NCBI GenBank assembly: GCA_964016885.1
Contig: OZ024741.1
Location: 259,222,001 to 259,286,000, forward strand
Length of the DNA: 64,000 nt
DNA from: Eledone cirrhosa
Taxonomy: Eukaryota
Direction of reading: 5' to 3'
This document shows positions 6,249-63,510 of this stretch, one piece after another. The notes beneath the pieces are model-generated. The model saw only the letters and a list, made by a program, of their open reading frames with translations. It was not told the DNA's origin and ran no database searches. The translations under genes were made by a program, and so were the position numbers. Position 1 is the first letter of the stretch. Every line of letters begins with the position of its first letter.

Positions 6249-6317
6249 GTATAAATAAAGATTAATGTAATGAACTTGAAAAGCATAGATATTTGAAACC
6301 GCGTCTATTTGTTATTT
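6249..6317 (+). repeat. 69-bp AT-rich interspersed element, allele A (copy 1)
   Basis: GTATAAATAAAGATTAATGTAATGAACTTGAAAAGCATAGATATTTGAAACCGCGTCTATTTGTTATTT (17/69 G+C), between the variant monomer GTAAAGCGAAAC and TCGTAAG. Confidence 0.95.
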
Positions 6318-7461
6318 TCGTAAGTCGAAACACTCGTAAGTCAGAACACTCGTAAGTCAGAACACTCGTATCGAAACACGTATGTCAAAACACCCGTAAG
6401 TCAAAACGCTCGTAAGTCGAAACACTCGTAAGTCGAAACACTCGTAAGCCGAAACAATCGTAAGTCAAAACACTCGTAAGTCGAAACACTCGTAAGCCGA
6501 AAATACTCGTAAGTCGGAACACCCGTAAGCCGAAACCCTCGTAGGTCGGAACACTCGTAAGTCGAAACACTCTTAAGTCGAAACACCCGTAAGTCGAAAC
6601 ACTCGTAAGTCGAAACACCCGTAAGTCGAAACACTCGTAAGTCGAAACACCCGTAAGTCGAAACATCCGTAAGTCAAAACACTCGTATGTCGAAACACTC
6701 GTAAGCCGAAACACTCGTAAGTCGGAACACTCGCAAGTCAGAACACTCGTAAGTCAGAACACTCGTAAGTCGAAACACTCGTAAGTCGAAACACCCGTAA
6801 GTCGAAACGCCCGTAAGTCAAAACACTCGTATGTCGAAACACTCGCAAGCCGAAAAACCGTAAGTCAAAACACTCGTAAGTCGAAACACTCGTAAATCGA
6901 AACACTCGTAAGCCGAAACACTCGTAAGCGAAAACATTCGTTAGTCGAAACACTCGTATCCCGAAACACTCGTAAGTCGAAACACTCGAAAGCCGAAACA
7001 CTCGTAAGTCGAAACACTCATAAGCCGAAACACTCGTAAGTCGGAACATTCGTAAGTCAGAACACCCGTAAATCAGAACACTCGTAGTCAGAACACTCGT
7101 AAGTCGAAACACTCGTAAGCCGAAACACTCGCAAGTCGAAGCACTCGTAATCCGAAACACTCTTAAGTCGAAACACTCGTAAGTCGGAACACTCGTAAGT
7201 CAGAACACTCGTAAGTCAGAACACTCGTAAGTCGAAACACTCGTAAGCCGAAACATCCGTAAGTCAAAACATCCGTAAGTCAAAACATTCGTAAGTCGAA
7301 ACACCCGTAGTCGAAACACTCGCAAGTCGAAACACTCGTAAGTCGAAACACGCGTAAGTCGAAACACATGTAAGTCAAAACACTCGTAAGTCAAAACACT
7401 CGTAAGCCGAAACACTCGTAAGTCGAAACACTCGTAAGTCGAAACACTCGTAAAGCGAAAC

Positions 7462-7530
7462 GTATAAATAAATATTAATGTAATGAATTTGAAAAGCATA
7501 GAGATTTGAAACCGCGTCTATTTGTTATTT
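7462..7530 (+). repeat. 69-bp element, allele B (copy 2)
   Basis: Same element with T12, T27 and G42 (AAATATTAAT, GAATTTG, ATAGAG). Confidence 0.95.
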
Positions 7531-8338
7531 TCGTAAGTCGAAACACTCGTAAGCCGAAACACTCGTGAGCCGAAACACTCGTAAGTCGGAACACTCGTAA
7601 GTCAGAACACTCGTAAGTCAGAACACTCGTAAGTTAGAACACTCGTAAGTCAGAACACTCGTAAGTCAGAACACTCGTAAGTCGAAACACTCGTATCGAA
7701 ACACTCGTATGTCAAAACACCCGTAAGTCAAAACACTCGTAAGTCGAAACACTCGTAAGTCGAAACACTCGTAAGCCGAAACACTCGTAAGCCGAAACAC
7801 TCGTAAGTCGGAACACTCGTAAGTCGGAACACTCGTAAGTCAGAACACTCGTAAGTCAGAACACTCGTAAGTCAGAACACTCGTAAGTCAGAACACTCGT
7901 AAGTCGAAACACTCGTATCGAAACACTCGTATGTCAAAACACCCGTAAGTCAAAACACTCGTAATTCGAAACACTCGTAAGTCGAAACACTCGTATGTCG
8001 AAACATCCGTAAATCAGAACACTCGTAAGTCGAAACACTCGTAAGTCGAAACACTCGTAAGCCGAAACACTCGTAAGTCGAAGCACTCGTATCGAAACAC
8101 TCGTAAGTCGAAACACCCTTAAGTCAAAACACTCGTAAGCCAAAACACTCGTAAGTCGAAACACTCGTAAGTCGGAACACTCGTATGTCAGAACACTCGT
8201 AAGTCAGAACACTCGTAAGTGGAAACACGCGTAAGTCGAGAGACCCGTAAGTCAAAAATCTCGTAAGTCAAAACACTCGTAAGCCGAAACACTCGTAAGT
8301 CGAAACACTCGTAAGTCGAAACATTCGTAAAGCGAAAC

Positions 8339-8407
8339 GTATAAATAAAGATTAATGTAATGAACTTGAAAAGCATAGATATTTGAAACCGCGTCTATTT
8401 GTTATTT
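8339..8407 (+). repeat. 69-bp element, allele A (copy 3)
   Basis: Matches copy 1. Confidence 0.95.
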
Positions 8408-9518
8408 TCGTAAGTCGAAACACTCGTAAGTCAGAACACTCGTAAGTCAGAACACTCTTAAGTCAGAACACTCGTATCGAAACACGTATGTCAAAACACC
8501 CGTAAGTCAAAACACTCGTAAGTCGAAACACTCGTAAGTCGAAACACTTGTAAGCCGAAACAATCGTAAGTCAAAACACTCGTAAGTCGAAACACTCGTA
8601 AGCCGAAAATACTCGTAAGTCGGAACACCCGTAAGCCGAAACCCTCGTAGGTCGGAACACTCGTAAGTCGAAACACTCGTAAGTCGAAACACCCGTAAGT
8701 CGAAACACTCGTAAGTCGAAACACCCGTAAGTCGAAACATCCGTAAGTCAAAACACTCGTATGTCGAAACACTCGTAAGCCGAAACACTCGTAAGTCGGA
8801 ACACTCGCAAGTCAGAACACTCGTAAGTCGAAACACTCGTAAGTCGAAACACCCGTAAGTCGAAACGCCCGTAAGTCGAAACACTCGTATGTCGAAACAC
8901 TCGCAAGCCGAAAAACCGTAAGTCAAAACACTCGTAAGTCGAAACACTCGTAAATCGAAACACTCGTAAGCCGAAACACTCGTAAGCGAAAACATTCGTT
9001 AGTCGAAACACTCGTATCCCGAAACACTCGTAAGTCGAAACACTCGAAAGCCGAAACACTCGTAAGTCGAAACACTCATAAGCCGAAACACTCGTAAGTC
9101 GGAACACTCGTAAGTCAGAACACCCGTAAATCAGAACACTCGTAGTCAGAACACTCGTAAGTCGAAACACTCGTAAGCCGAAACACTCGCAAGTCGAAGC
9201 ACTCGTAATCCGAAACACTCTTAAGTCGAAACACTCGTAAGTCGGAACACTCGTAAGTCAGAACACTCGTAAGTCAGAACACTCGTAAGTCGAAACACTC
9301 GTAAGCCGAAACATCCGTAAGTCAAAACATCCGTAAGTCAAAACATTCGTAAGTCGAACACCCGTAGTCGAAACACTCGCAAGTCGAAACACTCGTAAGT
9401 CGAAACACGCGTAAGTCGAAACACATGTAAGTCAAAACACTCGTAAGTCAAAACACTCGTAAGCCGAAACACTCGTAAGTCGAAACACTCGTAAGTCGAA
9501 ACACTCGTAAAGCGAAAC

Positions 9519-9587
9519 GTATAAATAAATATTAATGTAATGAATTTGAAAAGCATAGAGATTTGAAACCGCGTCTATTTGTTATTT
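9519..9587 (+). repeat. 69-bp element, allele B (copy 4)
   Basis: Matches copy 2. Confidence 0.95.
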
Positions 9588-10365
9588 TCGTAAGTCGAAA
9601 CACTCGTAAGCCGAAACACTCGTGAGCCGAAACACTCGTAAGTCGGAACACTCGTAAGTCAGAACACTCGTAAGTCAGAACACTCGTAAGTTAGAACACT
9701 CGTAAGTCAGAACACTCGTAAGTCAGAACACTCGTAAGTCGAAACACTCGTATCGAAACACTCGTATGTCAAAACACCCGTAAGTCAAAACACTCGTAAG
9801 TCGAAACACTCGTAAGTCGAAACACTCGTAAGCCGAAACACTCGTAAGCCGAAACACTCGTAAGTCGGAACACTCGTAAGTCGGAACACTCGTAAGTCAG
9901 AACACTCGTAAGTCAGAACACTCGTAAGTCAGAACACTCGTAAGTCAGAACACTCGTAAGTCGAAACACTCGTATCGAAACACTCGTATGTCAAAACACC
10001 CGTAAGTCAAAACACTCGTAAGTCGAAACACTCGTAAGTCGAAACACTCGTATGTCGAAACATCCGTAAATCAGAACACTCGTAAGTCGAAACACTCGTA
10101 AGTCGAAACACTCTTAAGTCGAAACACTCGTAAGTCGAAACACCCTTAAGTCAAAACACTCGTAAGCCAAAACACTCGTAAGTCGAAACACTCGTAAGTC
10201 GGAACACTCGTAAGTCAGAACACTCGTAAGTCAGAACACTCGTAAGTGGAAACACGCGTAAGTCGAAAGACCCGTAAGTCAAAAATCTCGTAAGTCAAAA
10301 CACTCGTAAGCCGAAACACACGTAAGTCGAAACACTCGTAAGTCGAAACATTCGTAAAGCGAAAC

Positions 10366-10434
10366 GTATAAATAAAGATTAATGTAATCAACTTGAAAAG
10401 CATAGATATTTGAAACCGCGTCTATTTGTTATTT
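10366..10434 (+). repeat. 69-bp element, allele A variant (copy 5)
   Basis: Allele A with ATCAAC in place of ATGAAC; variant shared with copy 9. Confidence 0.95.
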
Positions 10435-11479
10435 TCGTAAGTCGAAACACTCGTAAGTCAGAACACTCGTAAGTCAGAACACTCTTAAGTCAGAACACTC
10501 GTATCGAAACACGTATGTCAAAACACCCGTAAGTCAAAACACTCGTAAGTCGAAACACTCGTAAGTCGAAACACTCGTAAGCCGAAACAATCGTAAGTCA
10601 AAACACTCGTAAGTCGAAACACTCGTAAGCCGAAAATACTCGTAAGTCGGAACACCCGTAAGCCGAAACCCTCGTAGGTCGGAACACTCGTAAGTCAGAA
10701 CACCCGTAAGTCAGAACACTCGTAGTCAGAACACTCGTTAGTCGAAACACTCGTAAGCCGAAACACTCTTAAGTCGAAGCACTCGTAATCCGAAACACTC
10801 TTAAGTCAGAACACCCGTAAGTCAGAACACTCGTAAGTCAGAACACTCGTAAGTCAGAACACTCGTAAGTCAGAGCACTCGTATCGAAACACTCGTATGT
10901 CAAAACACCCGTAAGTCAAAACACTCGTAAGTCGAAACACTCGTAAGTCGAAACACTCGTAAGCCGAAACACCGTAAGCCAAAACACTCGTAAGTCGAAA
11001 CACCCGTAAGTCGGAACACTCGTAAGTCGAAACACTCGTAAGCCGAAACACTCATAAGCCGAAACACTCGTAAGTCGGAACACTCGTAAGTCAGAACACC
11101 CGTAAGTCAGAACACTCGTAGTCAGAACACTCGTTAGTCGAAACACTCGTAAGCCGAAACACTCTTAAGTGGAAGCACTCGTAATCCGAAACACTCTTAA
11201 GTCGAAACACTCGTAAGTCGGAAGACTCGTAAGTCAGAACACTCGTAAGTCAGAACACTCGTAAGTCGAAACACTCGTAAGCCGAAACATCCGTAAGTCA
11301 AAACATCCGTAGGTCAAAACATTCGTAAGTCGAAACACCCGTAGTCGAAACACTCGCATGTCGAAACACTCGTAAGTCGAAACACGCGTAAGTCGAAACA
11401 CATGTAAGTCAAAACACTCGTAAGTCAAAACACTCGTAAGCCGAAACACTCGTAAGTCGAAACACTCGTAAAGCGAAAC

Positions 11480-11548
11480 GTATAAATAAAGATTAATGTA
11501 ATGAATTTGAAAAGCATAGAGATTTGAAACCGCGTCTATTTGTTATTT
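11480..11548 (+). repeat. 69-bp element, A/B intermediate (copy 6)
   Basis: G12 as in allele A, T27 and G42 as in allele B. Confidence 0.95.
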
Positions 11549-14309
11549 TCGTAAATCGAAACACTCGTAAGCCTAAACACTCGTGAGCCGAAACACTCGT
11601 AAGTCGGAACACTCGTAAGTCAGAACACTCGTAAGTCAGAACACTCGTAAGTTAGAACACTCGTAAGTCAGAACACTCGTAAGTCAGAACACTCGTAAGT
11701 CAGAACACTCGTAAGTCGAAACACTCGTATCGAAACACTCGTATGTCAAAACACCAGTAAGTCAAAACACTCGTAAGTCGAAACACTCGTAAGCCGAAAC
11801 ACCGTAAGTCAAAACACTCGTAAGTCGAAACACTCGTAAGTCGAAACACTCGTAAGTCGAAACACTCGTAAGCCGAAACACTCGTAAGCCGAAACACTCG
11901 TAAGTCGGAACACTCGTAAGTCAGAACACTCATAAGTCAGAACACTCGTAAGTCAGAACACTCGTAAGTCGAAACACTCGTAAGCCGAAACACCGTAAGT
12001 CGAAACACCCGTATGTCGAAACACTCGTAAGCCGAAACACTCTTAAGTCGAAACACTCATAAGCCGAAACACTCGTAAGTCGGAACACTCGTACATCAGA
12101 ACACCCGCAAGTCAGAACACTCGTAAATCAGAACACTCTTAAGTCGAAACTCACGTACGCCGAAACACTCGTAAGTCGAAACACTCGTAAGTCGAAACAT
12201 CCTTAAGTCGAAACACTCGTACACCGAAACACTCGTAAGTATAAACATTAGTAAGTCGAAACACTCGTATGTCGAAACACTCGTAAACCGAAACACTCGT
12301 AAGTCGGAACACTCGTAAGTCAGAACACTCGTAAGTCAGAACACTCGTAAGTCGAAACACTCATAAGTCGAAACACTCGTAAGTCGAAACACCCGTAAGT
12401 CGAAACAACCGTAAGTCGAAACACTCGTATGTCGAATAACTCGTAAGCCGAAACACTCGTAAGCCAAAACATTCGTAAGTCGAAACACTCGTAAACCGAA
12501 ACACTCGTAAGCCAAAACATTCGTAAGTCTAAACACTCGTAAGTCGAAACACCCATAGCCGAAACACTTGTAAGTCTGAACACACGTAAGTCAGAACACC
12601 CGTAAGTCATAACACTCGTAAGTCAGAACACTCGTAAGTCAGAACACTCGTAAGTCAGAGCACTCGTATCGAAACACTCGTATGTCAAAACACCCGTAAG
12701 TCAAAACACTCGTAAGTCGAAACACTCGTAAGCCGAAACACCGTAAGCCAAAACACTCGTAAGTCGAAACATCCGTAAGTCGCAACACTCGTAAGTCGAA
12801 ACACTCGTAAGTCGAAACACTCGTAAGCCGAAACACTCGTAAGCCGAAACACTCGTAAGTCGGAACACTCGTAAGTCGGAACACTCGTAAGTCAGAACAC
12901 TCGTAAGTCAGAACACTCGTAAGTCAGAACACTCGTAAGTCAGAACACTCGTAAGTCGAAACACTCGTATCGAAACACTCGTATGTCAAAACACCCGTAA
13001 GTCAAAACACTCGTAAGTCGAAACACTCGTAAGTCGAAACATTCGTATGTCGAAACATCCGTAAATCAGAACACTCGTAAGTCGAAACACTCGTAAGTCG
13101 AAACACTCGTAAGCCGAAACACTCGTAAGTCGAAGCACTCGTATCGAAACACTCGTAAGTCGAAACACCCTTAAGTCAAAACACTCGTAAGCCAAAACAC
13201 TCGTAAGTCGAAACACTCGTAAGTCGGAACACTCGTAAGTCAGAACACTCGTAAGTCAGAACACTCGTAAGTGGAAACACGCGTAAGTCGAAACAGTCAT
13301 AAGTCGAAACACTCGTAAGTCGAAACACCCGTAAGTCGAAACACCCGTAAGTCGAAACACTCGTATGTCGAATAACTCGTAAGCCGAAACACCGTAAGTC
13401 AAAACACTCGTAAGTCGAAACACTCGTAAGTCGAAACACCCATAAGCCGAAACACTCGTAAGCCAAAACATTCGTAAGTCGAAACACTCGTAAGTCGAAA
13501 CACCCATAGCCGAAACACTCGTAAGTCTGAACACACGTAAGTCAGAACAGCCGTAAGTCAGAACACTCGTAAGTCAGAACACTCGTAAGTCAGAACACTC
13601 GTAAGTCAGAGCACTCGTATCGAAACACTCGTATGTCAAAACACCCGTAAGTCAAAACACTCGTAAGTCGAAACACTCGTAAGCCGAAACACCGTAAGCC
13701 AAAACACTCGTAAGTCGAAACACCCGTAAGTCGGAACACTCGTAAGTCGAAACACTCGTAAGTCGAAACACTCGTAAGCCGAAACACTCGTAAGCCGAAA
13801 CACTCGTAAGTCGGAACACTCGTAAGTCGGAACACTCGTAAGTCAGAACACTCGTAAGTCAGAACACTCGTAAGTCAGAACACTCGTAAGTCAGAACACT
13901 CGTAAGTCGAAACACTCGTATCGAAACACTCGTATGTCAAAACACCCGTAAGTCAAAACACTCGTAAGTCGAAACACTCGTATGTCGAAACATCCGTAAA
14001 TCAGAACACTCGTAAGTCGAAACACTCGTAAGCCGAAACACTCGTAAGTCGAAGCACTCGTATCGAAACACTCGTAAGTCGAAACACCCTTAAGTCAAAA
14101 CACTCGTAAGCCAAAACACTCGTAAGTCGAAACACTCGTAAGTCGGAACACTCGTATGTCAGAACACTCGTAAGTCAGAACACTCGTAAGTGGAAACACG
14201 CGTAAGTCGAAAGACCCGTAAGTCAAAAATCTCGTAAGTCAAAACACTCGTAAGCCGAAACACTCGTATGTCGAAACACTCGTAAGTCGAAACATTCGTA
14301 AAGCGAAAC

Positions 14310-14378
14310 GTATAAATAAAGATTAATGTAATGAACTTGAAAAGCATAGATATTTGAAACCGCGTCTATTTGTTATTT
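14310..14378 (+). repeat. 69-bp element, allele A (copy 7)
   Basis: Matches copy 1. Confidence 0.95.
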
Positions 14379-15506
14379 TCGTAAGTCGAAACACTCGTAA
14401 GTCAGAACACTCGTAAGTCAGAACACTCTTAAGTCAGAACACTCGTATCGAAACACGTATGTCAAAACACCCGTAAGTCAAAACACTCGTAAGTCGAAAC
14501 ACTCGTAAGTCGAAACACTCGTAAGCCGAAACAATCGTAAGTCAAAACACTCGTAAGTCGAAACACTCGTAAGCCGAAAATACTCGTAAGTCGGAACACC
14601 CGTAAGCCGAAACCCTCGTAGGTCGGAACACTCGTAAGTCGAAACACTCGTAAGTCGAAACACCCGTAAGTCGAAACACTCGTAAGTCGAAACACCCGTA
14701 AGTCGAAACATCCGTAAGTCAAAACACTCGTATGTCGAAACACTCGTAAGCCGAAACACTCGTAAGTCGGAACACTCGCAAGTCAGAACACTCGTAAGTC
14801 AGAACACTCGTAAGTCGAAACACTCGTAAGTCGAAACACCCGTAAGTCGAAACGCCCGTAAGTCAAAACACTCGTATGTCGAAACACTCGCAAGCCGAAA
14901 AACCGTAAGTCAAAACACTCGTAAGTCGAAACACTCGTAAATCGAAACACTCGTAAGCCGAAACACTCGTAAGCGAAAACATTCGTTAGTCGAAACACTC
15001 GTATCCCGAAACACTCGTAAGTCGAAACACTCGAAAGCCGAAACACTCGTAAGTCGAAACACTCATAAGCCGAAACACTCGTAAGTCGGAACACTCGTAA
15101 GTCAGAACACCCGTAAATCAGAACACTCGTAGTCAGAACACTCGTAAGTCGAAACACTCGTAAGCCGAAACACTCGCAAGTCGAAGCACTCGTAATCCGA
15201 AACACTCTTAAGTCGAAACACTCGTAAGTCGGAACACTCGTAAGTCAGAACACTCGTAAGTCAGAACACTCGTAAGTCGAAACACTCGTAAGCCGAAACA
15301 TCCGTAAGTCAAAACATCCGTAAGTCAAAACATTCGTAAGTCGAAACACCCGTAGTCGAAACACTCGCAAGTCGAAACACTCGTAAGTCGAAACACGCGT
15401 AAGTCGAAACACATGTAAGTCAAAACACTCGTAAGTCAAAACACTCGTAAGCCGAAACACTCGTAAGTCGAAACACTCGTAAGTCGAAACACTCGTAAAG
15501 CGAAAC

Positions 15507-15575
15507 GTATAAATAAATATTAATGTAATGAATTTGAAAAGCATAGAGATTTGAAACCGCGTCTATTTGTTATTT
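15507..15575 (+). repeat. 69-bp element, allele B (copy 8)
   Basis: Matches copy 2. Confidence 0.95.
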
Positions 15576-16383
15576 TCGTAAGTCGAAACACTCGTAAGCC
15601 GAAACACTCGTGAGCCGAAACACTCGTAAGTCGGAACACTCGTAAGTCAGAACACTCGTAAGTCAGAACACTCGTAAGTTAGAACACTCGTAAGTCAGAA
15701 CACTCGTAAGTCAGAACACTCGTAAGTCGAAACACTCGTATCGAAACACTCGTATGTCAAAACACCCGTAAGTCAAAACACTCGTAAGTCGAAACACTCG
15801 TAAGTCGAAACACTCGTAAGCCGAAACACTCGTAAGCCGAAACACTCGTAAGTCGGAACACTCGTAGGTCGGAACACTCGTAAGTCAGAACACTCGTAAG
15901 TCAGAACACTCGTAAGTCAGAACACTCGTAAGTCAGAACACTCGTAAGTCGAAACACTCGTATCGAAACACTCGTATGTCAAAACACCCGTAAGTCAAAA
16001 CACTCGTAAGTCGAAACACTCGTAAGTCGAAACACTCGTATGTCGAAACATCCGTAAATCAGAACACTCGTAAGTCGAAACACTCGTAAGTCGAAACACT
16101 CGTAAGCCGAAACACTCGTAAGTCGAAGCACTCGTATCGAAACACTCGTAAGTCGAAACACCCTTAAGTCAAAACACTCGTAAGCCAAAACACTCGTAAG
16201 TCGAAACACTCGTAAGTCGGAACACTCGTAAGTCAGAACACTCGTAAGTCAGAACACTCGTAAGTGGAAACACGCGTAAGTCGAAAGACCCGTAAGTCAA
16301 AAATCTCGTAAGTCAAAACACTCGTAAGCCGAAACACTCGTAAGTCGAAACACTCGTAAGTCGAAACATTCGTAAAGCGAAAC

Positions 16384-16452
16384 GTATAAATAAAGATTAA
16401 TGTAATCAACTTGAAAAGCATAGATATTTGAAACCGCGTCTATTTGTTATTT
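16384..16452 (+). repeat. 69-bp element, allele A variant (copy 9)
   Basis: ATCAAC variant, as in copy 5. Confidence 0.95.
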
Positions 16453-17580
16453 TCGTAAGTCGAAACACTCGTAAGTCAGAACACTCGTAAGTCAGAACAC
16501 TCTTAAGTCAGAACACTCGTATCGAAACACGTATGTCAAAACACCCGTAAGTCAAAACACTCGTAAGTCGAAACACTCGTAAGTCGAAACACTCGTAAGC
16601 CGAAACAATCGTAAGTCAAAACACTCGTAATTCGAAACACTCGTAAGCCCAAAATACTCGTAAGTCGGAACACCCGTAAGCCGAAACCCTCGTAGGTCGG
16701 AACACTCGTAAGTCGAAACACTCGTAAGTCGAAACACCCGTAAGTCGAAACACTCGTAAGTCGAAACACCCGTAAGTCGAAACATCCGTAAGTCAAAACA
16801 CTCGTATGTCGAAACACTCGTAAGCCGAAACACTCGTAAGTCGGAACACTCGCAAGTCAGAACACTCGTAAGTCAGAACACTCGTAAGTCGAAACACTCG
16901 TAAGTCGAAACACCCGTAAGTCGAAACGCCCGTAAGTCAAAACACTCGTATGTCGAAACACTCGCAAGCCGAAAAACCGTAAGTCAGAACACTCGTAAGT
17001 CGAAACACTCGTAAATCGAAACACTCGTAAGCCGAAACACTCGTAAGCGAAAACATTCGTTAGTCGAAACACTCGTAACCCGAAACACTCGTAAGTCGAA
17101 ACACTCGAAAGCCGAAACACTCGTAAGTCGAAACACTCATAAGCCGAAACACTCGTAAGTCGGAACACTCGTAAGTCAGAACACCCGTAAATCAGAACAC
17201 TCGTAGTCAGAACACTCGTAAGTCGAAACACTCGTAAGCCGAAACACTCGCAAGTCGAAGCACTCGTAATCCGAAACACTCTTAAGTCGAAACACTCGTA
17301 AGTCGGAACACTCGTAAGTCAGAACACTCGTAAGTCAGAACACTCGTAAGTCGAAACACTCGTAAGCCGAAACATCCGTAAGTCAAAACATCCGTAAGTC
17401 AAAACATTCGTAAGTCGAAACACCCGTAGTCGAAACACTCGCAAGTCGAAACACTCGTAAGTCGAAACACGCGTAAGTCGAAACACATGTAAGTCAAAAC
17501 ACTCGTAAGTCAAAACACTCGTAAGCCGAAACACTCGTAAGTCGAAACACTCGTAAGTCGAAACACTCGTAAAGCGAAAC

Positions 17581-52587: not shown

Positions 52588-52656
52588 GTATAAATAAATA
52601 TTAATGTAATGAATTTGAAAAGCATAGAGATTTGAAACCGCGTCTATTTGTTATTT
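52588..52656 (+). repeat. 69-bp element, allele B (copy 21)
   Basis: Matches copy 2. Confidence 0.95.
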
Positions 52657-53464
52657 TCGTAAGTCGAAACACTCGTAAGCCGAAACACTCGTGAGCCGAA
52701 ACACTCGTAAGTCGGAACACTCGTAAGTCAGAAAACTCGTAAGTCAGAACACTCGTAAGTTAGAACACTCGTAAGTCAGAACACTCGTAAGTCAGAACAC
52801 TCGTAAGTCGAAACACTCGTATCGAAACACTCGTATGTCAAAACACCCGTAAGTCAAAACACTCGTAAGTCGAAACACTCGTAAGTCGAAACACTCGTAA
52901 GCCGAAACACTCGTAAGCCGAAACACTCGTAAGTCGGAACACTCGTAAGTCGGAACACTCGTAAGTCAGAACACTCGTAAGTCAGAACACTCGTAAGTCA
53001 GAACACTCGTAAGTCAGAACACTCGTAAGTCGAAACACTTGTATCGAAACACTCGTATGTCAAAACACCCGTAAGTCAAAACACTCGTAAGTCGAAACAC
53101 TCGTAAGTCGAAACACTCGTACGTCGAAACATCCGTAAATCAGAACACTCGTAAGTCGAAACACTCGTAAGTCGAAACACTCGTAAGCCGAAACACTCGT
53201 AAGTCGAAGCACTCGTATCGAAACACTCGTAAGTCGAAACACCCTTAAGTCAAAACACTCGTAAGCCAAAACACTCGTAAGTCGAAACACTCGTAAGTCG
53301 GAACACTCGTAAGTCAGAACACTCGTAAGTCAGAACACTCGTAAGTGGAAACACGCGTAAGTCGAAAGACCCGTAAGTCAAAAATCTCGTAAGTCAAAAC
53401 ACTCGTAAGCCGAAACACTCGTAAGTCGAAACACTCGTAAGTCGAAACATTCGTAAAGCGAAAC

Positions 53465-53533
53465 GTATAAATAAAGATTAATGTAATGAACTTGAAAAGC
53501 ATAGATATTTGAAACCGCGTCTATTTGTTATTT
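53465..53533 (+). repeat. 69-bp element, allele A (copy 22)
   Basis: Matches copy 1. Confidence 0.95.
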
Positions 53534-54677
53534 TCGTAAGTCGAAACACTCGTAAGTCAGAACACTCGTAAGTCAGAACACTCGTATCGAAACACGTATG
53601 TCAAAACACCCGTAAGTCAAAACACTCGTAAGTCGAAACACTCGTAAGTCGAAACACTCGTAAGCCGAAACAATCGTAAGTCAAAACACTCGTAAGTCGA
53701 AACACTCGTAAGCCGAAAATACTCGTAAGTCGGAACACCCGTAAGCCGAAACCCTCGTAGGTCGGAACACTCGTAAGTCGAAACACTCTTAAGTCGAAAC
53801 ACCCGTAAGTCGAAACACTCGTAAGTCGAAACACCCGTAAGTCGAAACACTCGTAAGTCGAAACACCCGTAAGTCGAAACATCCGTAAGTCAAAACACTC
53901 GTATGTCGAAACACTCGTAAGCCGAAACACTCGTAAGTCGGAACACTCGCAAGTCAGAACACTCGTAAGTCAGAACACTCGTAAGTCGAAACACTCGTAA
54001 GTCGAAACACCCGTAAGTCGAAACGCCCGTAAGTCAAAACACTCGTATGTCGAAACACTCGCAAGCCGAAAAACCGTAAGTCAAAACACTCGTAAGTCGA
54101 AACACTCGTAAATCGAAACACTCGTAAGCCGAAACACTCGTAAGCGAAAACATTCGTTAGTCGAAACACTCGTATCCCGAAACACTCGTAAGTCGAAACA
54201 CTCGAAAGCCGAAACACTCGTAAGTCGAAACACTCATAAGCCGAAACACTCGTAAGTCGGAACACTCGTAAGTCAGAACACCCGTAAATCAGAACACTCG
54301 TAGTCAGAACACTCGTAAGTCGAAACACTCGTAAGCCGAAACACTCGCAAGTCGAAGCACTCGTAATCCGAAACACTCTTAAGTCGAAACACTCGTAAGT
54401 CGGAACACTCGTAAGTCAGAACACTCGTAAGTCAGAACACTCGTAAGTCGAAACACTCGTAAGCCGAAACATCCGTAAGTCAAAACATCCGTAAGTCAAA
54501 ACATTCGTAAGTCGAAACACCCGTAGTCGAAACACTCGCAAGTCGAAACACTCGTAAGTCGAAACACGCGTAAGTCGAAACACATGTAAGTCAAAACACT
54601 CGTAAGTCAAAACACTCGTAAGCCGAAACACTCGTAAGTCGAAACACTCGTAAGTCGAAACACTCGTAAAGCGAAAC

Positions 54678-54746
54678 GTATAAATAAATATTAATGTAAT
54701 GAATTTGAAAAGCATAGAGATTTGAAACCGCGTCTATTTGTTATTT
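54678..54746 (+). repeat. 69-bp element, allele B (copy 23)
   Basis: Matches copy 2. Confidence 0.95.
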
Positions 54747-55554
54747 TCGTAAGTCGAAACACTCGTAAGCCGAAACACTCGTGAGCCGAAACACTCGTAA
54801 GTCGGAACACTCGTAAGTCAGAACACTCGTAAGTCAGAACACTCGTAAGTTAGAACACTCGTAAGTCAGAACACTCGTAAGTCAGAACACTCGTAAGTCG
54901 AAACACTCGTATCGAAACACTCGTATGTCAAAACACCCGTAAGTCAAAACACTCGTAAGTCGAAACACTCGTAAGTCGAAACACTCGTAAGCCGAAACAC
55001 TCGTAAGCCGAAACACTCGTAAGTCGGAACACTCGTAAGTCGGAACACTCGTAAGTCAGAACACTCGTAGGTCAGAACACTCGTAAGTCACAACACTCGT
55101 AAGTCAGAACACTCGTAAGTCGAAACACTCGTATCGAAACACTCGTATGTCAAAACACCCGTAAGTCAAAACACTCGTAAGTCGAAACACTCGTAAGTCG
55201 AAACACTCGTATGTCGAAACATCCGTAAATCAGAACACTCGTAAGTCGAAACACTCGTAAGTCGAAACACTCGTAAGCCGAAACACTCGTAGGTCGAAGC
55301 ACTCGTATCGAAACACTCGTAAGTCGAAACACCCTTAAGTCAAAACACTCGTAAGCCAAAACACTCGTAAGTCGAAACACTCGTAAGTCGGAACACTCGT
55401 AAGTCAGAACACTCGTAAGTCAGAACACTCGTAAGTGGAAACACGCGTAAGTCGAAAGACCCGTAAGTCAAAAATCTCGTAAGTCAAAACACTCGTAAGC
55501 CGAAACACTCGTAAGTCCAAACACTCGAAAGTCGAAACATTCGTAAAGCGAAAC

Positions 55555-55623
55555 GTATAAATAAAGATTAATGTAGTGAACTTGAAAAGCATAGATATTT
55601 GAAACCGCGTCTATTTGTTATTT
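55555..55623 (+). repeat. 69-bp element, allele A variant (copy 24)
   Basis: Allele A with ATGTAGTG in place of ATGTAATG. Confidence 0.95.
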
Positions 55624-56751
55624 TCGTAAGTCGAAACACTCGTAAGTCAGAACACTCGTAAGTCAGAACACTCTTAAGTCAGAACACTCGTATCGAAACA
55701 CGTATGTCAAAACACCCGTAAGTCAAAACACTCGTAAGTCGAAACACTCGTAAGTCGAAACACTCGTAAGCCGAAACAATCGTAAGTCAAAACACTCGTA
55801 AGTCGAAACACTCGTAAGCCGAAAATACTCGTAAGTCGGAACACCCGTAAGCCGAAACCCTCGTAGGTCGGAACACTCGTAAGTCGAAACACTCTTAAGT
55901 CGAAACACCCGTAAGTCGAAACACTCGTAAGTCGAAACACCCGTAAGTCGAAACATCCGTAAGTCAAAACACTCGTATGTCGAAACACTCGTAAGCCGAA
56001 ACACTCGTAAGTCGGAACACTCGCAAGTCAGAACACTCGTAAGTCAGAACACTCGTAAGTCGAAACACTCGTAAGTCGAAACACCCGTAAGTCGAAACGC
56101 CCGTAAGTCAAAACACTCGTATGTCGAAACACTCGCAAGCCGAAAAACCGTAAGTCAAAACACTCGTAAGTCGAAACACTCGTAAATCGAAACACTCGTA
56201 AGCCGAAACACTCGTAAGCGAAAACATTCGTTAGTCGAAACACTCGTAACCCGAAACACTCGTAAGTCGAAACACTCGAAAGCCGAAACACTCGTAAGTC
56301 GAAACACTCATAAGCCGAAACACTCGTAAGTCGGAACACTCGTAAGTCAGAACACCCGTAAATCAGAACACTCGTAGTCAGAACACTCGTAAGTCGAAAC
56401 ACTCGTAAGCCGAAACACTCGCAAGTCGAAGCACTCGTAATCCGAAACACTCTTAAGTCGAAACACTCGTAAGTCGGAACACTCGTAAGTCAGAACACTC
56501 GTAAGTCAGAACACTCGTAAGTCGAAACACTCGTAAGCCGAAACATCCGTAAGTCAAAACATCCGTAAGTCAAAACATTCGTAAGTCGAAACACCCGTAG
56601 TCGAAACACTCGCAAGTCGAAACACTCGTAAGTCGAAACACGCGTAAGTCGAAACACATGTAAGTCAAAACACTCGTAAGTCAAAACACTCGTAAGCCGA
56701 AACACTCGTAAGTCGAAACACTCGTAAGTCGAAACACTCGTAAAGCGAAAC

Positions 56752-56820
56752 GTATCAATAAAGATTAATGTAATGAATTTGAAAAGCATAGAGATTTGAA
56801 ACCGCGTCTATTTGTTATTT
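56752..56820 (+). repeat. 69-bp element, allele B' (copy 25)
   Basis: GTATCAATAAAG variant, as in copy 12. Confidence 0.95.
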
Positions 56821-57644
56821 TCGTAAGTCGAAACACTCGTAAGCCGAAACAATCGTGAGCCGAAACACTCGTAAGTCGGAACACTCGTAAGTCAGAACAC
56901 TCGTAAGTCAGAACACTCGTAAGTTAGAACACTCGTAAGTCAGAACACTCGTAAGTCAGAACACTCGTAAGTCGAAACACTCATATCGAAACACTCGTAT
57001 GTCAAAACACCCGTAAGTCAAAACACTCGTAAGTCGAAACACTCGTAAGTCGAAACACTCGTAAGCCGAAACACTCGAAAGCCGAAACACTCGTAAGTCG
57101 GAACACTCGTAAGTCGGAACACTCGTAAGTCAGAACACTCGTAAGTCAGAACACTCGTAAGTCAGAACACTCGTAAGTCAGAACACTCGTAAGTCGAAAC
57201 ACTCGTATCGAAACACTCGTATGTCAAAACACCCGTAAGTCAAAACACTCGTAAGTCGAAACACTTGTAAGTCGAAACACTCGTATGTCGAAACATCCGT
57301 AAATCAGAACACTCGTAAGTCGAAACACTCGTAAGTCGAAACACTCGTAAGCCGAAACACTCGTAAGTCGAAGCACTCGTATCGAAACACTCGTAAGTCG
57401 AAACACCCTTAAGTCAAAACACTCGTAAGCCAAAACACTCGTAAGTCGAAACACTCGTAAGTCGGAACACTCGTAAGTCAGAACACTCGTAAGTCAGAAC
57501 ACTCGTAAGTGGAAACACGCGTAAGTCGAAAGACCCGTAAGTCAAAAATCTCGTAAGTCAAAACACTCGTAAGCCGAAACACTCGTAAGTCGAAACACTC
57601 GTAAGTCGAAACACTTTTAAGTCGAAACATTCGTAAAGCGAAAC

Positions 57645-57713
57645 GTATAAATAAAGATTAATGTAATGAACTTGAAAAGCATAGATATTTGAAACCGCGT
57701 CTATTTGTTATTT
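57645..57713 (+). repeat. 69-bp element, allele A (copy 26)
   Basis: Matches copy 1. Confidence 0.95.
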
Positions 57714-60170
57714 TCGTAAGTCGAAACACTCGTAAGTCAGAACACTCGTAAGTCAGAACACTCTTAAGTCAGAACACTCGTATCGAAACACGTATGTCAA
57801 AACACCCGTAAGTCAAAACACTCGTAAGTCGAAACACTCGTAAGTCGAAACACTCGTAAGCCGAAACAATCGTAAGTCAAAACACTCGTAAGTCGAAACA
57901 CTCGTAAGCCGAAAATACTCGTAAGTCGGAACACCCGTAAGCCGAAACCCTCGTAGGTCGGAACACTCGTAAGTCAAAACACTCGTAAGTCGAAACATCC
58001 GTAAGTCAAAACACTCGTATGTCGAAACACTCGTAAGCCGAAACACTCGTAAGTCAGAACACTCGTAAGTCAGAACACTCGTAAGTCGAAACACTCATAA
58101 GTCGAAACACTCGTAAGTCGAAACACCCGTAAGTCGAAACACCCGTAAGTCGAAACACTCGTATGTCGAATAACTCGTAAGCCGAAACACCGTAAGTCAA
58201 AACACTCGTAAGTCGAAACACTCGTAAGTCGAAACACCCATAAGCCGAAACATTCGTAAGCCAAAACATTCGTAAGTCGAAACACTCGTAAACCGAAACA
58301 CTCGTAAGCCAAAACATTCGTAAGTCGAAACACTCGTAAGTCGAAACACCCATAGCCGAAACACTTGTAAGTCTGAACACACGTAAGTCAGAACACCCGT
58401 AAGTCAGAACACTCGTAAGTCAGAACACTCGTAAGTCAGAGCACTCGTATCGAAACACTCGTATGTCAAAACACCCGTAAGTCAAAACACTCGTAAGTCG
58501 AAACACTCGTAAGCCGAAACACCGTAAGCCAAAACACTCGTAAGTCGAAACACCCGTAAGTCGGAACACTCGTAAGTCGAAACACTCGTAAGTCGAAACA
58601 CTCGTAAGCCGAAACACTCGTAAGCCGAAACACTCGTAAGTCGGAACACTCGTAAGTCGGAACACTCGTAAGTCAGAACACTCGTAAGTCAGAACACTCG
58701 TAAGTCAGAACACTCGTAAGTCAGAACACTCGTAAGTCGAAACACTCGTATCGAAACACTCGTATGTCAAAACACCCGTAAGTCAAAACACTCGTAAGTC
58801 GAAACACTCGTAAGTCGAAACATTCGTATGTCGAAACATCCGTAAATCAGAACACTCGTAAGTCGAAACACTCGTAAGTCGAAACACTCGTAAGCCGAAA
58901 CACTCGTAAGTCGAAGCACTCGTATCGAAACACTCGTAAGTCGAAACACCCTTAAGTCAAAACACTCGTAAGCCAAAAGACTCGTAAGTCGAAACACTCG
59001 TAAGTCGGAACACTCGTAAGTCAGAACACTCGTAAGTCAGAACACTCGTAAGTGGAAACACGCGTAAGTCGAAACACTCATAAGTCGAAACACTCGTAAG
59101 TCGAAACACCCGTAAGTCGAAACACCCGTAAGTCGAAACACTCGTATGTCGAATAACTCGTAAGCCGAAACACCGTAAGTCAAAACACTCGTAAGTCGAA
59201 ACACTCGTAAGTCGAAACACCCATAAGCCGAAACACTCGTAAGCCAAAACATTCGTAAGTCGAAACACTCGTAAACCGAAACACTCGTAAGCCAAAACAT
59301 TCGTAAGTCGAAACACTCGTAAGTCGAAACACCCATAGCCGAAACACTCGTAAGTCTGAACACACGTAAGTCAGAACAGCCGTAAGTCAGAACACTCGTA
59401 AGTCAGAACACTCGTAAGTCAGAACACTCGTAAGTCAGAGCACTCGTATCGAAACACTCGTATGTCAAAACACCCGTAAGTCAAAACACTCGTAAGTCGA
59501 AACACTCGTAAGCCGAAACACCGTAAGCCAAAACACTCGTAAGTCGAAACACCCGTAAGTCGGAACACTCGTAAGTCGAAACACTCGTAAGTCGAAACAC
59601 TCGTAAGCCGAAACACTCGTAAGCCGAAACACTCGTAAGTCGGAACACTCGTAAGTCGGAACACTCGTAAGTCAGAACACTCGTAAGTCAGAACACTCGT
59701 AAGTCAGAACACTCGTAAGTCAGAACACTCGTAAGTCGAAACACTCGTATCGAAACACTCGTATGTCAAAACACCCGTAAGTCAAAACACTCGTAAGTCG
59801 AAACACTCGTAAGTCGAAACACTCGTATGTCGAAACATCCGTAAATCAGAACACTCGTAAGTCGAAACACTCGTAAGTCGAAACACTCGTAAGCCGAAAC
59901 ACTCGTAAGTCGAAGCACTCGTATCGAAACACTCGTAAGTCGAAACACCCTTAAGTCAAAACACTCGTAAGCCAAAACACTCGTAAGTCGAAACACTCGT
60001 AAGTCGGAACACTCGTAAGTCAGAACACTCGTAAGTCAGAACACTCGTAAGTGGAAACACGCGTAAGTCGAAAGACCCGTAAGTCAAAAATCTCGTAAGT
60101 CAAAACACTCGTAAGCCGAAACACTCGTAAGTCGAAACACTCGTAAGTCGAAACATTCGTAAAGCGAAAC

Positions 60171-60239
60171 GTATAAATAAAGATTAATGTAATGAACTTG
60201 AAAAGCATAGATATTTGAAACCGCGTCTATTTGTTATTT
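60171..60239 (+). repeat. 69-bp element, allele A (copy 27)
   Basis: Matches copy 1. Confidence 0.95.
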
Positions 60240-61367
60240 TCGTAAGTCGAAACACTCGTAAGTCAGAACACTCGTAAGTCAGAACACTCTTAAGTCAGAA
60301 CACTCGTATCGAAACACGTATGTCAAAACACCCGTAAGTCAAAACACTCGTAAGTCGAAACACTCGTAAGTCGAAACACTCGTAAGCCGAAACAATCGTA
60401 AGTCAAAACACTCGTAAGTCGAAACACTCGTAAGCCGAAAATACTCGTAAGTCGGAACACCCGTAAGCCGAAACCCTCGTAGGTCGGAACACTCGTAAGT
60501 CGAAACACTCGTAAGTCGAAACACCCGTAAGTCGAAACACTCGTAAGTCGAAACACCCGTAAGTCGAAACATCCGTAAGTCAAAACACTCGTATGTCGAA
60601 ACACTCGTAAGCCGAAACACTCGTAAGTCGGAACACTCGCAAGTCAGAACACTCGTAAGTCAGAACACTCGTAAGTCGAAACACTCGTAAGTCGAAACAC
60701 CCGTAAGTCGAAACGCCCGTAAGTCAAAACACTCGTATGTCGAAACACTCGCAAGCCGAAAAACCGTAAGTCAAAACACTCGTAAGTCGAAACACTCGTA
60801 AATCGAAACACTCGTAAGCCGAAACACTCGTAAGCGAAAACATTCGTTAGTCGAAACACTCGTATCCCGAAACACTCGTAAGTCGAAACACTCGAAAGCC
60901 GAAACACTCGTAAGTCGAAACACTCATAAGCCGAAACACTCGTAAGTCGGAACACTCGTAAGTCAGAACACCCGTAAATCAGAACACTCGTAGTCAGAAC
61001 ACTCGTAAGTCGAAACACTCGTAAGCCGAAACACTCGCAAGTCGAAGCACTCGTAATCCGAAACACTCTTAAGTCGAAACACTCGTAAGTCGGAACACTC
61101 GTAAGTCAGAACACTCGTAAGTCAGAACACTCGTAAGTCGAAACACTCGTAAGCCGAAACATCCGTAAGTCAAAACATCCGTAAGTCAAAACATTCGTAA
61201 GTCGAAACACCCGTAGTCGAAACACTCGCAAGTCGAAACACTCGTAAGTCGAAACACGCGTAAGTCGAAACACATGTAAGTCAAAACACTCGTAAGTCAA
61301 AACACTCGTAAGCCGAAACACTCGTAAGTCGAAACACTCGTAAGTCGAAACACTCGTAAAGCGAAAC

Positions 61368-61436
61368 GTATAAATAAATATTAATGTAATGAATTTGAAA
61401 AGCATAGAGATTTGAAACCGCGTCTATTTGTTATTT
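61368..61436 (+). repeat. 69-bp element, allele B (copy 28)
   Basis: Matches copy 2. Confidence 0.95.
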
Positions 61437-62244
61437 TCGTAAGTCGAAACACTCGTAAGCCGAAACACTCGTGAGCCGAAACACTCGTAAGTCGGAACAC
61501 TCGTAAGTGAGAACACTCGTAAGTCAGAACACTCGTAAGTTAGAACACTCGTAAGTCAGAACACTCGTAAGTCAGAACACTCGTAAGTCGAAACACTCGT
61601 ATCGAAACACTCGTATGTCAAAACACCCGTAAGTCAAAACACTCGTAAGTCGAAACACTCGTAAGTCGAAACACTCGTAAGCCGAAACACTCGTAAGCCG
61701 AAACACTCGTAAGTCGGAACACTCGTAAGTCGGAACACTCGTAAGTCAGAACACTCGTAAGTCAGAACACTCGTAAGTCAGAACACTCGTAAGTCAGAAC
61801 ACTCGTAAGTCGAAACACTCGTATCGAAGCACTCGTATGTCAAAACACCCGTAAGTCAAAACACTCGTAAGTCGAAACGCTCGTAAGTCGAAACACTCGT
61901 ATGTCGAAACATCCGAAAATCAGAACACTCGTAAGTCGAAACACTCGTAAGTCGAAACACTCGTAAGCCGAAACACTCGTAAGTCGAAGCACTCGTATCG
62001 AAACACTCGTAAGTCGAAACACCCTTAAGTCAAAACACTCGTAAGCCAAAACACTCGTAAGTCGAAACACTCGTATGTCGGAACACTCGTAAGTCAGAAC
62101 ACTCGTAAGTCAGAACACTCGTAAGTGGAAACACGCGTAAGTCGAAAGACCCGTAAGTCAAAAATCTCGTAAGTCAAAACACTCGTAAGCCGAAACACTC
62201 GTAAGTCGAAACACTCGTAAGTCGAAACATTCGTAAAGCGAAAC

Positions 62245-62313
62245 GTATAAATAAAGATTAATGTAATGAACTTGAAAAGCATAGATATTTGAAACCGCGT
62301 CTATTTGTTATTT
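62245..62313 (+). repeat. 69-bp element, allele A (copy 29)
   Basis: Matches copy 1. Confidence 0.95.
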
Positions 62314-63441
62314 TCGTAAGTCGAAACACTCGTAAGTCAGAACACTCGTAAGTCAGAACACTCTTAAGTCAGAACACTCGTATCGAAACACGTATGTCAA
62401 AACACCCGTAAGTCAAAACACTCGTAAGTCGAAACACTCGTAAGTCGAAACACTCGTAAGCCGAAACAATCGTAAGTCAAAACACTCGTAAGTCGAAACA
62501 CTCGTAAGCCGAAAATACTCGTAAGTCGGAACACCCGTAAGCCGAAACCCTCGTAGGTCGGAACACTCGTAAGTCGAAACACTCGTAAGTCGAAACACCC
62601 GTAAGTCGAAACACTCGTAAGTCGAAACACCCGTAAGTCGAAACATCCGTAAGTCAAAACACTCGTATGTCGAAACACTCGTAAGCCGAAACACTCGTAA
62701 GTCGGAACACTCGCAAGTCAGAACACTCGTAAGTCAGAACACTCGTAAGTCGAAACACTCGTAAGTCGAAACACCCGTAAGTCGAAACGCCCGTAAGTCA
62801 AAACACTCGTATGTCGAAACACTCGCAAGCCGAAAAACCGTAAGTCAAAACACTCGTAAGTCGAAACACTCGTAAATCGAAACACTCGTAAGCCGAAACA
62901 CTCGTAAGCGAAAACATTCGTTAGTCGAAACACTCGTAACCCGAAACACTCGTAAGTCGAAACACTCGAAAGCCGAAACACTCGTAAGTCGAAACACTCA
63001 TAAGCCGAAACACTCGTAAGTCGGAACACTCGTAAGTCAGAACACCCGTAAATCAGAACACTCGTAGTCAGAACACTCGTAAGTCGAAACACTCGTAAGC
63101 CGAAACACTCGCAAGTCGAAGCACTCGTAATCCGAAACACTCTTAAGTCGAAACACTCGTAAGTCGGAACACTCGTAAGTCAGAACACTCGTAAGTCAGA
63201 ACACTCGTAAGTCGAAACACTCGTAAGCCGAAACATCCGTAAGTCAAAACATCCGTAAGTCAAAACATTCGTAAGTCGAAACACCCGTAGTCGAAACACT
63301 CGCAAGTCGAAACACTCGTAAGTCGAAACACGCGTAAGTCGAAACACATGTAAGTCAAAACACTCGTAAGTCAAAACACTCGTAAGCCGAAACACTCGTA
63401 AGTCGAAACACTCGTAAGTCGAAACACTCGTAAAGCGAAAC

Positions 63442-63510
63442 GTATAAATAAATATTAATGTAATGAATTTGAAAAGCATAGAGATTTGAAACCGCGTCTA
63501 TTTGTTATTT
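63442..63510 (+). repeat. 69-bp element, allele B (copy 30)
   Basis: Matches copy 2. Confidence 0.95.

What the first reader, a model, noticed from the sequence alone, without database searches (positions are those of the whole stretch)
6249..63510. Constant 69-bp AT-rich element punctuating the satellite 30 times at ~0.9/1.2-kb spacing
Seen: this is the only non-satellite sequence in 64 kb (25% G+C versus 44% for the monomer). All 30 copies have the same orientation and length, differ by only a few substitutions, and always follow the special monomer GTAAAGCGAAAC. Spacing alternates between 1197 and 877 bp, with most deviations equal to whole monomers. Inference: it is either a passenger captured once and amplified with HOR-1, or a functional punctuation mark in the array (protein-binding box, nucleosome-free gap, transcription start or stop, breakage or replication site).
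Basis: partly seen in the sequence, partly recalled or inferred. Interest (0 to 1): 0.75.

Follow-up and report, generated by a model that had tools for sequence, protein, structure and literature searches.

The report
Helitron leftover spaced through a satellite
The 69-base spacer in this satellite is a piece of a small rolling-circle transposon (a Helitron) whose 16-base internal repeat likely grew into the satellite, and it changes as fast as the repeats around it, so it is likely an ordinary passenger rather than a functional signal.

Summary
In detail: 30 same-strand 69-bp copies, the only non-satellite DNA in the window. The element is the inside of a dispersed non-autonomous Helitron. 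At least 154 dispersed sites carry it between 1-4 copies of the 16-bp monomer and a microsatellite plus 5'-TC end; the outer ends sit in A|T targets. Four arrays still end in an element copy that runs on into the Helitron's 5' part. On C4 a complete 4.3-kb Helitron holds a 2.3-kb array with two internal copies. So the array likely grew inside one Helitron, and one duplication pulled the 69 bp inward; 2009 exact copies share that junction. The other flank (743 bp) was co-amplified too. Among window HOR copies the element varies like the monomers (0.043 vs 0.044 variants per site), has no invariant box, and is missing for 22 kb; elsewhere its spacing runs from 243 to 3973 bp. One result against neutrality: monomers lie further from the Helitron's monomers (4-9%) than the element from its source (1.5%). 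Chromatin and RNA could not be tested. Known kind (DINE-TR1, oyster HINE satellites), with unusually complete intermediates.

The parts
5..63993 (+). 16-bp satellite array (about 4019 monomers), part of the + block at G000:C2:258.911-260.180 Mb; the monomer is the internal minisatellite of the Helitron
14310..15506 (+). example A unit (element A plus monomers, 1197 bp)
15507..16383 (+). example B unit (element B plus monomers, 877 bp); A+B form the 2074-bp HOR; monomer parts of A and B are 91% alike over 808 aligned bases
29110..51390 (+). 22-kb stretch of the same satellite without any element copy (longer, about 4.7-kb periodicity)
6249..6317 (-). element copy 1, type A (Helitron sense is the - strand)
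7462..7530 (-). copy 2, type B
8339..8407 (-). copy 3, type A
9519..9587 (-). copy 4, type B
10366..10434 (-). copy 5, type A
11480..11548 (-). copy 6, type B; first 65 nt identical to the consensus of dispersed Helitron copies
14310..14378 (-). copy 7, type A
15507..15575 (-). copy 8, type B
16384..16452 (-). copy 9, type A
17581..17649 (-). copy 10, type B
18428..18496 (-). copy 11, type A
19609..19677 (-). copy 12, type B
20502..20570 (-). copy 13, type A
22093..22161 (-). copy 14, type A
23290..23358 (-). copy 15, type B
24167..24235 (-). copy 16, type A
26855..26923 (-). copy 17, type B
27732..27800 (-). copy 18, type A
29041..29109 (-). copy 19, type B
51391..51459 (-). copy 20, type A (lacks the AseI site)
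52588..52656 (-). copy 21, type B
53465..53533 (-). copy 22, type A
54678..54746 (-). copy 23, type B
55555..55623 (-). copy 24, type A
56752..56820 (-). copy 25, type B
57645..57713 (-). copy 26, type A
60171..60239 (-). copy 27, type A
61368..61436 (-). copy 28, type B
62245..62313 (-). copy 29, type A
63442..63510 (-). copy 30, type B

Best explanation
The 69-bp element is the stretch of a non-autonomous Helitron that lies between its microsatellite and its 16-bp internal repeat; the repeat likely grew into the satellite inside one Helitron copy, and one likely duplication put this flank between monomers, where it is likely copied as a neutral passenger. Shown: sequence identity with the dispersed Helitron, arrays bounded by Helitron parts, a 2.3-kb intermediate inside a complete Helitron, one shared junction, equal recent variation. 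Inferred: (1) the minisatellite expanded by slippage or unequal exchange; (2) one repair or template-switch event with 1-2 nt of microhomology joined the T-run after the element to a monomer, before the array passed about 2 kb; (3) ordinary array recombination built local HORs such as 1197+877 and lost the element from other stretches; (4) Mb-sized blocks were duplicated and inverted on C2.
For: Dispersed copies: 154 exact hits of the dispersed-type junction, evenly on both strands; 19 of 19 fetched dispersed loci hold the element after monomers and before a microsatellite and TC end, in a module of 482-755 bp ending in hairpin-CTAG. Outer composite ends are canonical: A before the CTAG-side end in 9 of 10 loci where it was found, T after the TC-side end in 11 of 12 hits, with different flanks. 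Array ends: the element continues into the Helitron 5' part at 4 places (C2:254.735, 257.768, 262.043 Mb; C4:114.054 Mb), all with the same 8-bp indel that makes the last 4 nt of the 69-mer native. C4 holds a complete 4310-bp composite Helitron, A|T-flanked, around a 2.3-kb array with 2 internal and 1 terminal copy. One junction has 2009 exact hits. The opposite flank (743 bp) is also amplified inside the arrays: 39 of the 40 best hits, about 89 of the 100 listed hits of a marker. The commonest array haplotype (54 of 129 copies, some loci overlapping) equals the dispersed consensus. Recent variation is equal: 6/138 against 85/1936. 31 of 69 sites vary among 149 copies; longest invariant run 5, random expectation 6.1. 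Spacing is 243-3973 bp, and 4 of 28 satellite-filled 8-kb samples on C2 plus one half-filled sample have no copy; one copy has an internal insertion and two are cut short.
Against: Monomers lie further from the Helitron's own monomers (6-9% per site; 3-4% without three hot sites) than the element lies from its consensus (1.2-1.5%); purifying selection could give this. The 743-bp flank, however, is similarly close (2.0-2.3%). The test rests on only 6 element variants, so a halving of the rate would not be excluded. The left-flank marker shared by 13 of 13 array-embedded copies and 0 of 22 dispersed copies also turned up in all 9 other dispersed loci fetched for it; it is a CpG change and so a weak lineage marker. 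No autonomous element with the same ends was found among 16 RepHel loci. No chromatin, binding or usable RNA data were available.
Confidence: 0.85

Rival explanations
1. Same origin, but the element has since been co-opted as a functional spacer (protein-binding box, nucleosome gap, promoter or terminator, centromere box).
For: AT-rich, constant length in 30 of 30 window copies; closer to its ancestor than monomers are to theirs; its distal part is shared with sister Helitron families (second copies in L032, L037, L043; loose ends), so it may hold a protein site; conserved boxes in Helitron-associated arrays mark centromeres in Meloidogyne (PMC13404089, passages).
Against: Recent variation equals that of monomers; no invariant box; 22-kb gap in the window and spacing from 243 to 3973 bp; the satellite seems nearly confined to one C2 domain plus 97 kb on C1 (variant-monomer probe: 4082 hits against about 4660 expected from the C2 domain alone), unlike a box needed on every chromosome; no Rfam match; no stable fold.
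Confidence: 0.08
2. The array is a product of RepHel rolling-circle copying: each element copy marks a round of aberrant replication of a truncated Helitron, and the element still recruits transposase.
For: The element lies about 60-130 nt from the 5'-TC end, the end that Helraiser needs (PMC4778049, passages); tandem arrays of truncated 5' ends are described in plants (review PMC12628747, passages); RepHel genes are plentiful, 3704 candidates, one with a 1718-aa open frame.
Against: Internal copies lack the TC end and microsatellite, so they have no nick site; only 4 terminal copies keep that part. Spacers between copies differ by monomer blocks and form nested HORs, as recombination would give, not uniform concatemers.
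Confidence: 0.05
3. Order of events reversed: the short dispersed copies are collapsed descendants of an already array-bearing Helitron, or the young Helitron flanks were recombined into an older array. The element is still a Helitron flank and a passenger; only the history differs.
For: It would explain why monomers are 3-4 times more diverged than either flank, already in the 2.3-kb C4 array. The 8-bp indel cannot be polarised; a monomer-less sister form is more common (341 exact hits) and shares those 8 letters.
Against: Dispersed monomers are nearly invariant (1.3%; 43 of 49 are the two basic types) and show none of the common array variants; both flanks join the array in monomer phase at L048, L181 and the 4 right ends.
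Confidence: 0.25
4. Assembly artefact or an independent insertion repeated 30 times.
For: Highly repetitive region.
Against: Copies carry linked, heritable variants that follow HOR structure; one junction and one orientation relative to monomers everywhere; contigs of run X1 show joints from the element end back into monomers (X1 may be the source sample, so not independent).
Confidence: 0.01

Closest known systems
Oyster Helitron/Helentron-borne satellites (Cg170/CgiSat01, Cg_HINE, Helitron-N2_CGi)
   Same: Element built of terminal boxes, a microsatellite, a conserved segment between microsatellite and central repeats ('Box 3', 156 bp), and a tandem array that also occurs as one-sided or stand-alone satellite (PMC8268682 and PMC7492417, passages). 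The 69-mer is the positional equivalent of Box 3.
   Different: Here the ends are TC/CTAG in A|T targets, not subTIR Helentron ends; the monomer is 16 bp; the array reaches about 7 Mb against up to about 40 kb in the oyster passages; the inner flank was drawn into the HOR about 2000 times.
Drosophila DINE-TR1 satellite emergence (Dias et al. 2015)
   Same: A Helitron-type element's central repeat becomes a satellite (seen only as a reference title in PMC12628747, and as search listings; detail recalled).
   Different: DINE-1 is a Helentron-type element (title of PMC4067079 in search listing); different monomer; I did not read whether flanks are kept inside those arrays.
Canonical non-autonomous Helitrons (HLE1; Hel-2/Lep1 type, Helraiser termini)
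   Same: 5'-TC, 3'-CTAG, 3' hairpin, A|T target, tetranucleotide microsatellite near the 5' end (PMC4344730 and PMC4778049, passages).
   Different: The module is nested in modular composites, its hairpin is extended to 17 bp and includes the CTAG, and no matching autonomous partner was found.
Meloidogyne centromeric arrays with 19-bp box and Helitron intermediate sequences
   Same: Tandem arrays interspersed with Helitron-derived sequence in HOR organisation (PMC13404089, passages).
   Different: There the box is conserved across divergent repeats and species and tied to CenH3; here no invariant box exists and the satellite seems confined to few loci.
Transposon insertions copied by host recombination inside satellites (Anoplius, Porphyrio, Linaria examples)
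   Same: One transposon-derived interruption multiplied on one strand within an array (10.64898/2026.09.17.752431, section 9).
   Different: Those are insertions into an existing satellite; here the interruption is the flank of the element that likely gave rise to the satellite.

Membership tests
Non-autonomous canonical Helitron (HLE1) - source element | 5'-TC terminus | tested here: met
   Module ends in TC (minus strand) in 19 of 19 dispersed loci; composite outer TC end in 11 loci.
Non-autonomous canonical Helitron (HLE1) - source element | 3'-CTRR terminus with nearby hairpin | tested here: met
   CTAG in 19 of 19; 17-bp stem, -17.7 kcal/mol; outer composite end has a weaker hairpin, -4.4.
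Non-autonomous canonical Helitron (HLE1) - source element | Insertion between A and T without target-site duplication | tested here: met
   T after the module CTAG in 19 of 19; outer ends A|T in 9 of 10 and 11 of 12 hits; C4 flanks unrelated to each other. The inner TC is preceded by A in only 6 of 19 because it is usually nested in a composite. No empty allele was seen.
Non-autonomous canonical Helitron (HLE1) - source element | Dispersed copies with unrelated flanks | tested here: met
   154 exact hits, the 100 listed spread along C1-C4; unrelated flanks beyond the outer ends.
Non-autonomous canonical Helitron (HLE1) - source element | Autonomous RepHel partner with matching ends | tested here: inconclusive
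   RepHel elements with TC/CTAG ends of similar design exist (L081: PF14214 plus PF05970, 1718 aa), but none of 16 loci shared sequence with the module beyond simple repeats; 16 of 3704 candidates examined.
Helentron / HINE (HLE2) | Sub-terminal inverted repeats at both ends and TT target | tested here: not met
   Ends are TC and CTAG in A|T targets; a systematic subTIR search was not run, so the target site carries this verdict.
Satellite derived from a Helitron central repeat | Same monomer as short array inside dispersed elements and as long array | tested here: met
   1-3 full monomers plus a partial one in 18 of 19 dispersed copies by strict count (the 19th has diverged monomers); Mb arrays on C2.
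Satellite derived from a Helitron central repeat | Intermediate arrays still bounded by element parts | tested here: met
   C4 2.3-kb array with both ends; L048 4-kb array with the CTAG side only; three C2 blocks with the TC side.
Functional satellite box (CENP-B box / Meloidogyne 19-bp box type) | More conserved than flanking repeat; invariant core | tested here: not met
   0.043 vs 0.044; longest invariant run 5 of 69. On the long time scale the element is closer to its ancestor than monomers are.
Functional satellite box (CENP-B box / Meloidogyne 19-bp box type) | Protein binding or CenH3 association | not testable with these tools
   No ChIP or ATAC data.
Functional satellite box (CENP-B box / Meloidogyne 19-bp box type) | Kept in orthologous arrays of other species | tested here: inconclusive
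   Runs labelled organisms B, C, D hold near-identical pieces at low depth, which may be carried-over DNA of organism A.

The most novel reading that the evidence does not exclude
A Helitron carrying a kilobase array with its own flank already folded in (the C4 copy) still moves by rolling-circle transposition and seeds megabase satellites, and the 2000 internal copies of its 5' box recruit transposase or a host factor that speeds array growth.
Probability: 0.08. Interest if true: 0.65.

Novelty: new member of a known kind. Interest (0 to 1): 0.3.

Why it matters
As a functional element it matters little: it looks like a passenger. Its value is as a record of satellite birth. One genome holds every stage: about 3.7 monomers in dispersed Helitrons, a 2.3-kb array inside a complete Helitron, a 4-kb one-sided array, a 97-kb array, and about 7 Mb of blocks that still end in Helitron sequence. 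The two co-amplified flanks are non-repetitive markers with a known ancestral sequence. They allow dating of HOR turnover and a direct test of whether tandem monomers mutate faster than neighbouring unique DNA. It also warns that a constant spacer in a satellite need not be a functional box.

Tried and rejected
Rfam scan of window 6200-6400: 0 matches at E <= 1. Folding of the element: no stable structure (-0.1 and -0.5 kcal/mol). Idea that the element start is a degenerate copy of the repeats upstream of the monomers: not above shuffles (28% of 500 reached the score), dropped. Idea that the last 4 nt are templated filler: rejected, they are native in the terminal copies. Idea that the C89T change marks only the array lineage: weakened. 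Search for an autonomous partner in 16 RepHel loci: none. Cross-species test: runs X4, X5, X7 inconclusive. RNA: the only RNA-labelled run (X20) laid nothing, which proves nothing. RAD-seq runs X22-X24 show the Helitron, monomers and sister families but no listed element-to-monomer joint; reduced representation and cut tables make this uninformative. A direct count of Helitron left parts running into five or more monomers was not obtained. Literature searches found the general phenomenon; (5 of 6 terms on co-amplified spacers) found 0 papers, which does not show the pattern is unpublished. Supplements were not read.
Full report
Observation. The window is one 16-bp tandem array. A gap-free scan finds 30 copies of the 69-mer, all on one strand, and they are the only 30 non-satellite runs. 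G+C is 0.243 against 0.444, all 30 follow the same 12-mer, and 29 carry the AseI site. Types A and B mostly alternate and make a 2074-bp HOR. The regularity is local: 14 of 29 spacings are exactly 877 or 1197, 6 of the other 15 differ by whole monomers, and there is a 22,350-bp gap.

Where else it occurs. The window is G000:C2:259,222,001-259,286,000 of a 3.0-Gb genome. A 26-nt core has 2141 exact hits, many of them single and dispersed. The dispersed form, where the element runs on into non-satellite sequence, has 154 exact hits. The array form, where it runs back into monomers, has 2009. Reversed-pattern controls gave 0.

What the dispersed form is. All 19 dispersed loci fetched from the list show the same module of 482-755 bp. 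Read on the minus strand it is: 5'-TC end, tetranucleotide microsatellite, the element, 1-4 monomers, about 300 bp of AT-rich sequence, a hairpin and CTAG. The hairpin has a 17-bp stem. The module usually sits in a larger composite whose outer ends are also TC and CTAG, with A|T flanks in 9 of 10 and 11 of 12 hits and unrelated sequence beyond. These are the marks of canonical Helitrons as given in PMC4778049 and PMC4344730 (passages). RepHel genes are common in the genome; one 1718-aa frame has the Rep and PIF1 domains and ends of similar design, but none of 16 loci examined shares sequence with the module. These 19 loci were chosen by an exact match, so their low divergence (0.6%) is biased.

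How it got into the array. At C2:240.96 Mb a 4-kb array starts directly from the CTAG half of the module. At C2:254.735 Mb the last element copy of an array continues into the microsatellite and almost to the TC end. This terminal form differs from the dispersed form by an 8-bp indel, which makes the last 4 nt of the 69-mer native Helitron sequence. It occurs 4 times in the genome at up to 1 mismatch: at the ends of three C2 blocks that share their flank at 95-99% identity, and on C4. The C4 locus is a complete 4310-bp composite Helitron around a 2.3-kb array with two internal copies and one terminal copy. So the junction that drew the flank inward existed when the array was about 2 kb long. 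It joins a T-run to a monomer with 1-2 nt of overlap (read from the sequence; the repair pathway is inferred). The other flank went the same way: 743 bp, including part of a neighbouring Helitron, is repeated inside the C2 arrays (39 of 40 best hits; about 89 of 100 listed marker hits). The window holds none of these. Sampling puts the satellite in blocks of both orientations between about 254.7 and 263.1 Mb on C2, interrupted by other satellites and unique DNA, plus 97 kb on C1. That an inversion split the 240.96-Mb stub from the rest fits the orientations but is only inferred.

Passenger or function. I aligned 13 A units and 11 B units (24 of 29 intervals; the 5 of other length or type order were left out). 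The element carries 6 variant alleles in 138 sites and the monomer part 85 in 1936; the rates are 0.043 and 0.044, and CpG sites are not hotter. Power is low with 6 variants. Over 149 copies from 47 sources, 31 of 69 sites vary and the longest invariant run is 5, against 6.1 at random. Spacing in the survey is 243-3973 bp, several 8-kb samples have no copy, and damaged copies exist. The commonest haplotype equals the dispersed consensus and the others radiate from it. A variant-monomer probe has 4082 hits genome-wide, against about 4660 extrapolated for the C2 domain alone; for the junction the extrapolation gives about 1620 of 2009, so some copies may lie elsewhere. The lists stop at 100 places, so other chromosomes were not seen directly. 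This argues against a box needed on every chromosome.

Results against my reading. Monomers are 6-9% from the Helitron's two monomer types (3-4% without three hot sites), the element 1.2-1.5% from its consensus and the left flank 2.0-2.3%. Selection on the element alone would not explain why the 743-bp flank behaves alike. Faster early mutation in the tandem part, or a different order of events (short copies collapsed from an array-bearing ancestor), could. I cannot choose between these. The left-flank marker is in 13 of 13 array copies and 0 of 22 dispersed ones, but also in 9 of 9 further dispersed loci fetched because they carry it; 8 of these lack monomers. A monomer-less sister form has 341 exact hits. 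The 8-bp indel is not polarised. Sequencing runs gave no usable cross-species or RNA evidence.

Comparison. Satellites grown from Helitron or Helentron central repeats, with element-bound, one-sided and free arrays, are described in the oyster (PMC8268682, PMC7492417; passages) and reviewed in PMC12628747 (passages). The 69-mer matches the position of oyster 'Box 3'. Single transposon interruptions multiplied inside arrays by host recombination are described in 10.64898/2026.09.17.752431 (section 9). Meloidogyne arrays have a conserved box tied to CenH3 (PMC13404089, passages); the element fails the conservation test for such a box. DINE-TR1 I saw only as a title and in listings. Earlier unreviewed notes of this scan on neighbouring windows reach the same Helitron origin from the 743-bp flank; they are not independent support.

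Verdict. Real, explained, of a known kind. Identity as Helitron flank: about 0.97. Neutral passenger: about 0.85. Interest 0.3, mainly for the complete series of intermediates.

Noticed in passing
L029-L047, left of the module: In 19 of 19 dispersed copies the module's CTAG end abuts a TC-type start, mostly of other Helitron families; this suggests targeting of Helitron starts. Of 9 further loci, 4 abut a TA run instead.
   Followed up: partly
L181:7785-10000 and L160:1-2387 (G000:C4:114,050,785-114,055,094): Complete composite Helitron holding a 2.3-kb array of the satellite, on another chromosome than the main domain; has private deletions, so it is not the direct ancestor of the C2 blocks.
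   Followed up: yes
L097-L116, L023, L126, L134 (G000:C2:256.6-261.7 Mb): Second passenger: 743-bp left flank (CTAG|TC junction of two Helitrons), clustered near the starts of array blocks at 3-4-kb spacing.
   Followed up: yes
L157-L159; L111/L162 and L173/L174: Mb-sized satellite blocks on C2 share their end flanks (95-99%) and start flanks (98-99.7% over 10 kb), so whole blocks were duplicated.
   Followed up: partly
L015, L016, L022, L119, L133, L169 (39-bp); L129 (45-bp); L059 (37-bp); L049, L053 (25-, 33-, 19-bp on C1): Other unrelated short satellites interrupt or abut the 16-bp arrays on C2 and C1, a patchwork typical of heterochromatin; centromere status unknown.
   Followed up: no
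L069-L080 (G000:C20:3.5-5.2 Mb, C27:13-15.5 Mb, C19, C16): Near-identical RepHel hits recur on one strand about every 80-210 kb, suggesting a giant tandem unit that contains a Helitron.
   Followed up: no
window 29110-51390: Element-free stretch with its own periodicity of about 4.6-4.8 kb.
   Followed up: partly
window HOR units: CpG sites in the CpG-rich monomer do not mutate faster than other sites among HOR copies, which hints at little methylation of this satellite.
   Followed up: no
L081:1657-6810: Autonomous Helitron frame of 1718 aa with 11 STPR repeat matches ahead of Rep and PIF1 domains.
   Followed up: partly
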